From positions 5,177 to 20,840 of the forward strand of contig CAYIER010000007.1 of assembly GCA_964362395.1 (NCBI GenBank): DNA of 15,664 nt, read 5' to 3'. The translations under genes were made by a program, and so were the position numbers. Positions within the stretch are counted from its first letter, which is position 1, and every line of letters begins with the position of its first letter. This stretch comes from an uncultured archaeon. Its GTDB lineage: Archaea; Iainarchaeota; Iainarchaeia; Iainarchaeales; GW2011-AR10. This document shows positions 212 to 547 of this stretch, piece by piece. The notes under the pieces were generated by a model. The model made no database searches and was not told the origin of the DNA. It saw only the letters and a list, made by a program, of their open reading frames with translations.

Positions 212-330
212 GTTTTGTTTTAACAAAAAAAACTTATGTATTGTAACATTGTTCATGTCAAACTACTATTTAAGCATTTGCAATTGCGCAAATTACGTTG
301 TTTGTCCAAAACAATTGTGCGCAACAACGA

Positions 331-373
331 TGCACATGCATGCAGTGCGCGCAAACACACACACACACACACA
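331..373. repeat. Alternating purine/pyrimidine tract (tgcacatgcatgca, gtgcgcgca, then (AC)9 at 355-373) inside a CA-rich intergenic region
   Basis: Direct reading: acacacacacacacacaca at 355-373. It is preceded by the self-complementary 8-mers catgcatg/tgcatgca and by gcgcgc. The plus strand over 330-470 is almost devoid of T. Confidence 0.8.
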
Positions 374-547
374 AGCAACGCATACACACGCACAACACTC
401 GCAAACATGCAGCGCCTGCACTCTCGCTGCACCAGCATACACGCACAGCATTTGCTGGCTGCACAAACAAATTCCACAAAATGCAACTGCAGCCGCCAAG
501 TCAACGTTTAAATAATCTGCAAATGTATTCAGTACGGGTGCACTGCA

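What the first reader, a model, noticed from the sequence alone, without database searches (positions are those of the whole stretch)
224..547. 350-nt strand-asymmetric CA-rich intergenic region with (AC)9 microsatellite and about 43 nt of alternating Pu/Py (Z-DNA-prone) sequence between divergent promoters
Between the divergently transcribed RS-repeat gene and the Ca2+-ATPase gene lies an unusually long spacer for a compact archaeal genome. Over 330-470 the plus strand is nearly T-free and C+A-rich. It contains catgcatg/tgcatgca palindromes, gcgcgc and a perfect (AC)9 run (355-373), giving about 43 nt of almost uninterrupted purine-pyrimidine alternation. The classic Z-DNA-forming sequence types (CG)n and (CA/TG)n both occur here. 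Such tracts can absorb negative supercoils and modulate divergent promoters. Dinucleotide microsatellites are rare in prokaryotes and are slippage-prone. The region could alternatively encode a structured ncRNA. The six-frame small ORFs here encode H/T/Q/C-rich low-complexity peptides and look like composition artefacts.
Basis: seen in the sequence. Interest (0 to 1): 0.6.

Follow-up and report, generated by a model that had tools for sequence, protein, structure and literature searches.

The report
Lineage-specific CA-rich simple-sequence promoter spacer
The CA-rich stretch with its (AC)9 repeat is real and statistically unusual. It is a recent, lineage-specific piece of simple-sequence DNA between two conserved archaeal promoters, absent from relatives with the same flanking genes, with no sign of an RNA or protein product.

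Summary
A 352-nt spacer (196-547) separates a minus-strand Ser/Arg-rich small ORF from a plus-strand P-type ATPase gene. It contains a perfect (AC)9 (355-372), beyond chance. It also holds a ~190-nt block (316-503) with the strongest purine/pyrimidine alternation in the 15.6-kb window (0.74 against 0.46; z about 5-7).

Four relatives with the same gene order (ATPase 59-71% identical) conserve only the Shine-Dalgarno sequence, a BRE/TATA block for the small ORF (267-281) and a TATA block for the ATPase (507-514). Between the TATA boxes they carry 94-146 nt of AT-rich DNA with ordinary alternation. The window carries 232 nt at 50% GC. The CA-rich block is therefore lineage-specific.

Neither strand folds better than shuffled sequence. 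Rfam gives nothing. The six open frames follow from the lack of T, show no 3-nt periodicity, match no family, and are closed by stops in the one relative translated. (AC)9 has the same length in five assemblies covering two haplotypes.

Best reading: a slippage-derived simple-sequence expansion in the dispensable part of a divergent-promoter spacer. It is the most Z-prone DNA in the window, but a Z-DNA role is untested, not conserved, and weakened by the reported absence of gyrase from most DPANN phyla. Low interest.

The parts
1..195 (-). 5' part of a small Ser/Arg-rich basic ORF. It is 74 aa in the full contig L124:1670-1894, with its ATG at window 195-193.
   Evidence: Translation. The two haplotypes differ by in-frame indels of 15 and 9 nt. 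Comparable S/R/K-rich ORFs sit at the same place in L134, L135 and L139; L141 has a matching start region that was not translated. No Pfam or PDB match. Gene callers did not call it.
205..211 (-). Shine-Dalgarno sequence (GGAGGTG on the minus strand) of the small ORF.
   Evidence: The ACCTCC core is invariant in five lineages.
267..281 (-). Archaeal core promoter of the small ORF: TATA box (CTTAAATA on the minus strand, 267-274) and BRE-like GCAAATG (275-281).
   Evidence: Nearly invariant block AnTATTTAA..TT.CAAT in five lineages, at a constant distance of about 70 nt from the ATG. The TATA/BRE assignment rests on the known archaeal promoter architecture and is an inference.
282..315 (.). Conserved promoter-upstream block with palindromes TTGCGCAA (284-291) and TTGTTTGTCCAAAACAA (298-314). 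Possible regulator binding site.
   Evidence: About 90% identical to L134, although the ATPase is only 71% identical. TTGCGCAAAT is also present in L141. The binding-site role is an inference.
316..503 (.). Lineage-specific block, C+A-rich on the plus strand, with strong purine/pyrimidine alternation.
   Evidence: Alternation 0.743, z 6.7. GC is 0.50 against 0.45 for the locus. Cannot be aligned to, and is absent from, four orthologous spacers of 94-146 nt with GC 0.25-0.38 and alternation z -0.8 to +0.7. Outside (AC)9 there is no excess of repeated k-mers and no periodicity.
355..372 (.). Perfect (AC)9 microsatellite.
   Evidence: (0 of 2000 shuffles). Its length is identical in the window, L124, L126, L128 and L129.
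345..372 (.). Best in-phase Z-prone tract: GT(GC)3 AA (AC)9.
   Evidence: Lowest simplified B-to-Z dinucleotide energy of the whole window at window lengths of 16-64 nt. The parameters were recalled from Ho et al. 1986 and are approximate.
507..529 (+). Core promoter of the ATPase gene: TATA box TTTAAATA (507-514) and conserved AAATGTATT (521-529).
   Evidence: GTTTAaATA is invariant in five lineages.
548..3274 (+). P-type cation (Ca2+-type) ATPase, 908 aa.
   Evidence: Pfam Cation_ATPase_N, E1-E2_ATPase, Hydrolase and Cation_ATPase_C. Homologues are named SERCA/PMR1-type by their sources.

Best explanation
The 352-nt spacer has two kinds of parts.

The functional parts are conserved. One is a BRE/TATA promoter (267-281) with a 5' UTR and Shine-Dalgarno sequence for the minus-strand Ser/Arg-rich small ORF, plus an adjacent palindrome-bearing block (282-315). 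The other is a TATA promoter (507-514) for the plus-strand ATPase.

The CA-rich, purine/pyrimidine-alternating block between them (about 316-503, including (AC)9) is a lineage-specific expansion of simple sequence. It most likely arose by replication slippage of dinucleotide-type repeats, followed by point mutation and small indels. It replaced or extended the short AT-rich spacer seen in relatives.

It makes no RNA or protein product of its own and has no conserved sequence-specific role. It works as passive spacer DNA that roughly doubles the distance between the two TATA boxes. As a physical by-product it is the stiffest-to-melt and most Z-prone DNA of the locus, so any effect on the promoters would be topological and modest.

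Shown: the anatomy, the statistics, the conservation pattern and the lack of RNA or coding signals. Inferred: the origin by slippage and functional neutrality.
For: - Synteny: the order GINS, PriS, small basic ORF, spacer, ATPase, PriL, PCNA, RpiB is conserved in L135 and L139, and as far as their shorter contigs reach in L134 and L141.
- Conservation: only the promoter, Shine-Dalgarno and TATA blocks align.
- Between the TATA boxes: 232 nt, GC 0.50, alternation z +5.1 in the window. Relatives have 94-146 nt, GC 0.25-0.38, z -0.8 to +0.7.
- L138 (ATPase 57% identical) has only 66 nt upstream of its ATPase.
- (AC)9 is beyond chance, while the rest of the block has no repeat or periodic structure beyond its dinucleotide content.
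- RNA fold z-scores are -0.26 and -0.19. There are no Rfam hits at gathering score, and the weak hits are microRNA models hitting the AC/GT repeat plus one far-sub-threshold snoRNA model.
- The ORFs have no family and no 3-nt periodicity, and L134 has stops in all six frames.
- Divergence in the spacer between haplotypes is 2 transitions in 352 nt, or 0.57%. The locus average is 0.6%, so the spacer is neither constrained nor hypervariable.
- Other low-complexity A/C-rich stretches and repeat indels occur in the same genome.
Against: - The alternation is very strong, and its phase flips many times.
- (AC)9 kept its length across two haplotypes that differ by 0.6% and by two indels in the neighbouring ORF. 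That could mean length constraint rather than neutrality.
- All four syntenic relatives also keep an unusually long spacer of 200-253 nt, so some spacing or upstream function may exist.
- No expression or topology data are available.
- Only about 27 kb of this genome was seen, so genome-wide occurrence of such blocks is unknown.
Confidence: 0.68

Rival explanations
1. Functional Z-DNA element ('flipon'). The alternating tracts (345-372 and neighbours) flip to Z-DNA when divergent transcription builds negative supercoils between the two promoters. This buffers torsion and couples or insulates the two genes.
For: The lowest estimated B-to-Z cost of the window lies at 345-372. Alternation is extreme. 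The tract lies between two divergent promoters supported by conservation. (AC)9 keeps its length in two haplotypes, and both spacer SNPs are transitions that preserve alternation.
Against: It is absent from four syntenic relatives whose promoters are conserved. The tracts are short (28 bp or less in phase) and change phase repeatedly. Transitions are the commonest SNP type anyway, and there are only two. Relatives are labelled Candidatus Diapherotrites, and gyrase is reported missing from DPANN phyla other than Micrarchaeota, Woesearchaeota, Pacearchaeota, UBA583 and some Altiarchaeota (PMC9348778), so a global source of negative supercoiling is doubtful. Z-prone sequence is predicted very commonly in archaea (bioRxiv 10.64898/2025.12.30.697008).
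Confidence: 0.12
2. Array of binding sites for a transcription factor (upstream activating or repressing sequence). It would be built on YGCA/CGCAAA-type motifs, which also recur in the relatives' spacers.
For: TTGCGCAA, TTTGCAAA, TTTGCG and CGCAAA motifs recur in all five spacers. GCACATGCAT is shared with L141. Block 282-315 is conserved with L134.
Against: Within 275-506 the counts of GCA, TGCA, CGCA, GCAA and CGCAA equal those of dinucleotide-preserving shuffles. There is no 10-11-nt phasing. The conserved motifs lie left of 345, outside the CA-rich core.
Confidence: 0.08
3. Phase-variable ('contingency') microsatellite. Changes in the number of AC units would switch or tune the ATPase or the small ORF.
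For: A perfect dinucleotide repeat of 9 units is rare in archaea (PMC12699852) and lies in a promoter region. Several assemblies break in or near this spacer.
Against: The length is identical in five assemblies from at least five sequencing runs and two haplotypes. The repeat lies 81 nt from one TATA box and 135 nt from the other. It is not between core promoter elements or inside an ORF, so unit changes would not alter promoter geometry.
Confidence: 0.04
4. A non-coding RNA (CA-rich plus-strand or GU-rich minus-strand transcript), or a long regulatory leader of the ATPase mRNA.
For: The TATA block at 267-274 is nearly symmetric and could fire rightwards. The region is long, and no gene has been called in it.
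Against: No Rfam family matches. Folding is no better than shuffles on either strand. The sequence is not conserved in relatives, and spacer length varies from 94 to 232 nt. The ATPase has its own conserved TATA box 21-33 nt before the ATG. There is no T-run terminator on the plus strand.
Confidence: 0.05
5. A missed small protein gene (His/Thr/Cys-rich, 69-105 aa, any of six frames), for example a metal-binding peptide linked to the ATPase.
For: All six frames are open across about 250-510. The plus frames are His/Cys-rich.
Against: The open frames follow from the scarcity of T on the plus strand. There is no 3-nt periodicity and no family at threshold. L134 has stops in all six frames. The ORFs run across the conserved TATA boxes, and no Shine-Dalgarno sequence precedes them.
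Confidence: 0.02

Closest known systems
Simple-sequence repeats and cryptically simple DNA in prokaryotic intergenic regions
   Same: A perfect dinucleotide repeat sits in low-complexity, compositionally skewed DNA. It is lineage-specific and not alignable to orthologous spacers. The same genome shows other slippage-type indels, namely the 15- and 9-nt repeats in the neighbouring ORF.
   Different: Dinucleotide repeats of this length are uncommon in archaea, which have the lowest and a depleted STR density (PMC12699852). The surrounding 190 nt are biased towards purine/pyrimidine alternation rather than towards one repeat unit.
(TG/CA)n Z-DNA-forming promoter microsatellites of eukaryotes, for example the (GT)n of the human HO-1 promoter (PMC3664823, listed)
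   Same: It has the same CA/TG sequence type, lies upstream of a promoter, and is the most Z-prone site of the locus.
   Different: Eukaryotic examples are usually longer and polymorphic in length, with Z-DNA shown experimentally. Here the repeat has 9 units, a fixed length, no experimental data, and a host probably without gyrase.
Alternating purine-pyrimidine non-B-DNA element of the Halobacterium bop promoter (Yang et al. 1996, J Bacteriol 178:840; title seen in the reference list of PMC3184054; details from my own knowledge)
   Same: It is an archaeal promoter region with an alternating purine/pyrimidine tract proposed to respond to supercoiling.
   Different: The bop element is about 11 bp and lies next to the TATA box in a gyrase-containing haloarchaeon. 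Here the tracts lie 60-130 nt upstream of either TATA box and are not conserved.
Bacterial contingency loci with dinucleotide repeats in divergent promoters, for example (TA)n between hifA and hifB of Haemophilus influenzae (my own knowledge)
   Same: A dinucleotide microsatellite lies between divergently transcribed genes.
   Different: In hif the repeat sets the spacing between the -35 and -10 elements and varies between cells. Here the repeat is outside both core promoters and shows no length variation.

Membership tests
Microsatellite / simple-sequence repeat | Perfect tandem repeat of a 1-6-nt unit, longer than chance | tested here: met
   (AC)9 at 355-372. No repeat of 18 nt or more in 2000 region shuffles or 300 window shuffles.
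Microsatellite / simple-sequence repeat | Length polymorphism among close relatives | tested here: not met
   Nine units in all five assemblies and both haplotypes. Consensus level only; reads were not available.
Phase-variable contingency locus | Repeat inside an ORF or between core promoter elements, so that unit changes switch expression | tested here: not met
   The repeat is 81 nt from TATA 267-274 and 135 nt from TATA 507-514, outside any supported ORF.
Z-DNA-forming sequence (flipon) | Alternating purine/pyrimidine tract of CG or CA/TG type, roughly 12 bp or longer | tested here: met
   Runs of 15, 9, 19, 17 and 13 nt. The lowest simplified B-to-Z energy of the window is at 345-372.
Z-DNA-forming sequence (flipon) | B-to-Z transition at physiological superhelical density, or binding by Z-alpha proteins | not testable with these tools
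   This needs 2-D gels, chemical probing or Z-alpha pull-down. Gyrase is reported absent from most DPANN phyla (PMC9348778). The gyrase status of this organism is unknown.
Z-DNA-forming sequence (flipon) | Conservation of the tract at orthologous promoters (expected for a functional element) | tested here: not met
   Four orthologous spacers have ordinary alternation (z -0.8 to +0.7) and longest runs of 6-11 nt.
Structured non-coding RNA / riboswitch leader | Match to a described RNA family | tested here: not met
   No hit at gathering score. The best sub-threshold hits are microRNA models on the AC/GT repeat and one snoRNA model (19-23 bits against 64-90 required).
Structured non-coding RNA / riboswitch leader | Folding energy beyond shuffled controls, or covariation | tested here: not met
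   z -0.26 on the plus strand and -0.19 on the minus strand. Covariation cannot be assessed because the block has no alignable homologue.
Small protein-coding gene | ORF conserved in orthologous loci, codon periodicity, or family match | tested here: not met
   L134 has stops in all six frames. Lag-3 autocorrelation z is -0.7 and -0.1. There is no Pfam hit at threshold.
Archaeal BRE/TATA core promoters (divergent pair) | TATA-like octamer with adjacent BRE, conserved at a fixed distance from the gene start | tested here: met
   The AnTATTTAA block lies about 70 nt from the small-ORF ATG in five lineages. GTTTAaATA lies 21-33 nt before the ATPase ATG.
Archaeal BRE/TATA core promoters (divergent pair) | Mapped transcription start sites | not testable with these tools
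   No transcript data are available.
Archaeal replication origin | AT-rich unwinding element flanked by ORB repeats, usually beside orc1/cdc6 | tested here: not met
   The block has GC 0.50, above the locus value of 0.45. There are no long inverted or direct repeat families. There is no orc1/cdc6 in the window. ORB consensus matching was not done formally.

The most novel reading that the evidence does not exclude
The alternating CA/GC-rich block is a recently evolved torsional element. In a small archaeon that probably lacks gyrase, it would absorb the negative supercoils generated between two divergently firing promoters by flipping to Z-DNA. This would tune expression of the Ca2+-type ATPase and of the small Ser/Arg-rich basic protein beside the primase-GINS operon. 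The fixed (AC)9 length would then reflect selection.
Probability: 0.08. Interest if true: 0.5.

Novelty: new member of a known kind. Interest (0 to 1): 0.18.

Why it matters
As it stands, little. It is an example of how simple-sequence DNA can appear and persist between promoters even in a compact DPANN-type genome, and of how such DNA breaks metagenome assemblies and creates false open reading frames in all six frames.

If the block did act as a supercoil-absorbing Z-DNA element, it would be a rare archaeal case of non-B DNA regulating divergent genes. It would also be a natural before/after comparison, because close relatives with the same promoters lack it.

Tried and rejected
- Rfam, whole window at gathering score and 1-800 at E up to 10: only sub-threshold hits, four microRNA models on the AC/GT repeat and one snoRNA model.
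- tRNA/tmRNA scan: none.
- The sigma-70 promoter and terminator scan is uninformative for archaea, and its counts equal those of shuffles.
- RNA folding of both strands: no excess stability.
- A decamer (CGCAAACACA) tandem array suggested by TRF, and helical phasing of GCA motifs: rejected. Once (AC)9 is removed, repeated k-mers equal shuffles, and no lag-10/11 signal exists.
- A single long decayed (AC)n microsatellite: not sufficient, because the alternation phase flips many times.
- Transposon or MITE: no terminal inverted repeats, and the block is strand-asymmetric.
- Small protein: rejected.
- N-terminal extension of the ATPase: excluded. ORF 236-511 is in the ATPase frame and ends at the TAA at 509-511, inside the TATA box (my own reading).
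- Genome-wide copies: not testable. The exact-pattern scan of viral contigs found none.
- Exact-protein look-ups of the ATPase, PriL and P0001 found nothing. PCNA and RpiB look-ups gave the population contigs.
- The paper on the bop non-B-DNA element (PMC177733) is not held.

Full report
**What is in the window.** The window is archaeal. It encodes PriL, two PCNA paralogues, RpoL, LonB and other archaeal proteins. Nearly identical contigs come from 0.1-um-filtered groundwater metagenomes named Hain_H51, which I take to be the Hainich site, and from Logan assemblies. The closest named relatives of its P-type ATPase are 'Candidatus Diapherotrites' MAGs, so the organism is probably a DPANN archaeon.

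The finding lies between two genes. One is a minus-strand ORF whose ATG is at 195. The other is the plus-strand ATPase gene (548-3274; Pfam Cation_ATPase_N, E1-E2_ATPase, Hydrolase and Cation_ATPase_C). The 352-nt gap between them is the longest intergenic region of the window.

**Check of the observation.** This covers (AC)9 at 355-372, CATGCATG/TGCATGCA at 335-344 and GCGCGC at 347-352. Alternating purine/pyrimidine runs of 15, 9, 19, 17 and 13 nt lie between 330 and 447. The four longest alternating runs of the whole 15.6-kb window are all here.

The (AC)9 is beyond chance. No dinucleotide-preserving shuffle of the region (0 of 2000, maximum 16 nt) or of the window (0 of 300, maximum 12 nt) reached 18 nt. 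No other (AC)6 or longer exists in the 139 loci fetched by then.

The block 316-503 alternates at 74% of steps. Mononucleotide shuffles give 50% (z 6.7), and all 188-nt windows average 46 +/- 6%. 'Nearly T-free' is an overstatement, because T is 12% over 330-470.

Once (AC)9 is set aside, the block has no repeated k-mers and no periodicity at 3 or at 10-11 nt beyond what its dinucleotide content gives. The period-10 'CGCAAACACA' array reported by TRF is therefore a compositional effect.

**The flanks are real genes with real promoters.** In the longer contig L124 the minus-strand ORF is 74 aa: MSTSRSRRSSSSSSGSSGSRSKSRS...RSRSR. A GC hairpin and a T-run follow its stop. The next genes on that strand are PriS and GINS.

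Two haplotypes of the population differ in this ORF by indels of 15 and 9 nt, both in frame. That argues for a translated gene, although no gene caller reported it.

Relatives whose ATPase is 71%, 63%, 60% and 59% identical (L134, L135/L136, L139, L141) keep the same gene order as far as their contigs reach. L134 and L141 start inside the small ORF, so PriS and GINS are seen only in L135 and L139. A short S/R/K-rich ORF sits at the same position in L134, L135 and L139. L141 has a matching start region that I did not translate.

Alignment of the five spacers shows a few conserved blocks:
- an invariant Shine-Dalgarno core (window 205-211);
- a nearly invariant TATA block (267-274) with a BRE-like GCAAATG on the minus strand (275-281), always about 70 nt from the small-ORF ATG;
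- a block with the palindromes TTGCGCAA and TTGTTTGTCCAAAACAA (282-315), which is conserved with L134;
- GTTTAAATA (506-514) followed by AAATGTATT (521-529), upstream of the ATPase.

Start sites are inferred, not mapped.

**The CA-rich block is not conserved.** Between the two TATA boxes the window has 232 nt with GC 0.50, against a locus GC of 0.45, and alternation z +5.1 relative to its own locus. The four relatives have 94-146 nt with GC 0.25-0.38, alternation z between -0.8 and +0.7, and longest alternating runs of 6-11 nt. Their spacers are A- or T-rich and cannot be aligned to 316-503. A fifth relative (L138, 57%) has a different upstream neighbour and only 66 nt before the ATPase.

The block is therefore a lineage-specific addition of about 90-140 nt. 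It sits in the part of the spacer that is free to vary.

**No product.**
- Rfam has no match at gathering score. The weak hits are microRNA models aligning to the AC/GT repeat, plus one snoRNA model far below its threshold.
- Neither strand folds better than dinucleotide shuffles, with z -0.26 and -0.19.
- All six frames are open over about 250-510. This follows from the scarcity of T on the plus strand.
- There is no 3-nt periodicity and no Pfam family at threshold.
- The L134 spacer has stops in every frame.
- The frame shared with the ATPase is closed by the TAA at 509-511 inside the TATA box, so there is no N-terminal extension (my own reading).

**Population data.** The window and ten population loci from nine assembled contigs are 99.3-100% identical over the stretches they share. 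Five sequences span (AC)9, and all have nine units.

The two haplotypes differ in the spacer by two transitions, A/G at 336 and C/T at 436. That is 0.57%, the same as the locus-wide 0.6%. The spacer is thus neither hypervariable nor unusually constrained. The microsatellite was more stable than the 15- and 9-nt coding repeats next door.

One assembly (L127/L081) ends at window 410, inside the block. The window itself, L134 and L141 end inside the small ORF, and L140 ends inside the spacer, 149 nt before the ATPase ATG. This fits low-complexity DNA and strain indels breaking assembly graphs. It leaves open some read-level heterogeneity that I could not examine.

**Z-DNA.** I ran a simplified dinucleotide B-to-Z energy scan. 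Its parameters were recalled from Ho et al. 1986, so they are approximate. The lowest-energy tracts of the whole window at lengths of 16-64 nt lie at 345-372, GT(GC)3AA(AC)9. The sequence is therefore the most Z-prone of the locus.

Several points weigh against a functional role:
- The in-phase tracts are short, and the phase flips repeatedly.
- The feature is absent from orthologous promoters.
- Predicted Z-prone sequence is very common in archaeal genomes (bioRxiv 10.64898/2025.12.30.697008).
- Gyrase is reported only in Micrarchaeota, Woesearchaeota, Pacearchaeota, UBA583 and some Altiarchaeota among DPANN, and is missing from the remaining phyla (PMC9348778). If this organism is a Diapherotrites-type archaeon, only local transcription-generated supercoiling could drive the transition.

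None of this disproves a topological role. That needs experiments.

**Most likely explanation.** The block is a slippage-derived simple-sequence expansion in the dispensable middle of a divergent-promoter spacer (confidence about 0.68). The promoters and the 282-315 block are the functional elements. The CA-rich block is passive spacer DNA whose physical properties, Z-prone and harder to melt than the AT-rich spacers of relatives, are by-products.

Its origin is not fully explained. The many phase changes show it is not one decayed microsatellite, so repeated small slippage events, indels and transitions are inferred.

The rivals, in order of confidence, are:
- a Z-DNA or torsional element (0.12);
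- a transcription-factor site array (0.08), weakened because motif counts equal shuffles;
- an ncRNA or leader (0.05);
- a phase-variable repeat (0.04);
- a small protein (0.02).

**Comparison with known systems.** It is a simple-sequence repeat in the ordinary sense. Archaea have the lowest and a depleted STR density (PMC12699852), so it is a statistical rarity there, but it is not a new kind of element.

It resembles eukaryotic (TG/CA)n promoter microsatellites and the alternating purine/pyrimidine element of the Halobacterium bop promoter in sequence type only. It fails the defining features of contingency loci, both in position relative to core promoter elements and in length variation.

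**Verdict.** It is a new member of a known kind, and the interest is low (0.18).

Noticed in passing
window 1-195 (-); full ORF L124:1670-1894 (-): An unannotated 74-aa protein made almost only of Ser, Arg, Thr, Lys and Gly. It has a strong GGAGGTG Shine-Dalgarno sequence, its own conserved promoter, and a hairpin plus T-run after the stop, directly upstream of priS-gins. S/R/K-rich ORFs of 21-38 aa or longer occupy the same place in three relatives. The haplotypes differ by in-frame 15- and 9-nt indels. There is no Pfam or PDB match, and gene callers skip it.
   Followed up: partly
window 532-541: In four relatives the ATPase ATG lies 21-23 nt after the TATA box, which is the geometry of a leaderless mRNA. 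In the window a ~10-nt insertion (GTACGGGTGC) moves the ATG to 33 nt and creates a GGGTG 6 nt upstream of it, a possible switch to a short Shine-Dalgarno-bearing leader.
   Followed up: partly
window 282-315: The palindromes TTGCGCAA (284-291) and TTGTTTGTCCAAAACAA (298-314) lie just upstream of the BRE of the small-ORF promoter. They are about 90% conserved with L134, and TTGCGCAAAT also occurs in L141. GCACATGCAT (332-341) is shared with L141. This is a candidate regulator site.
   Followed up: partly
window 1; window 410 (end of L127/L081); starts of L134, L140, L141: Independent assemblies from several samples and lineages end inside the small Ser/Arg ORF or the spacer. This suggests that strain indels and low complexity break assembly graphs here.
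   Followed up: no
window 3271-5132 and 8195-9046; L124:1-1565: There is a dense cluster of replication genes around the ATPase: GINS and PriS on one side, PriL and two PCNA paralogues on the other. The order is conserved in all the relatives examined as far as their contigs reach. The ATPase sits in the middle of this conserved cluster.
   Followed up: partly
window 5740-8106: A Fic-domain gene and an AbiEi/AbiEii toxin-antitoxin pair are inserted between RpiB and the second PCNA gene. L137 has the AbiE pair, while L134 and L135 carry UPF0175/DUF3368 genes there instead. It looks like a variable defence or TA islet.
   Followed up: no
window 12600-12830 and 14246-14296: Other A/C-rich low-complexity stretches lie inside coding regions. 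One is in the N-terminal part of the Band_7 gene (A+C up to 0.73). The other is AAAAAACA x6.4 at the end of the DUF373 gene. The genome tolerates simple sequence elsewhere too.
   Followed up: no
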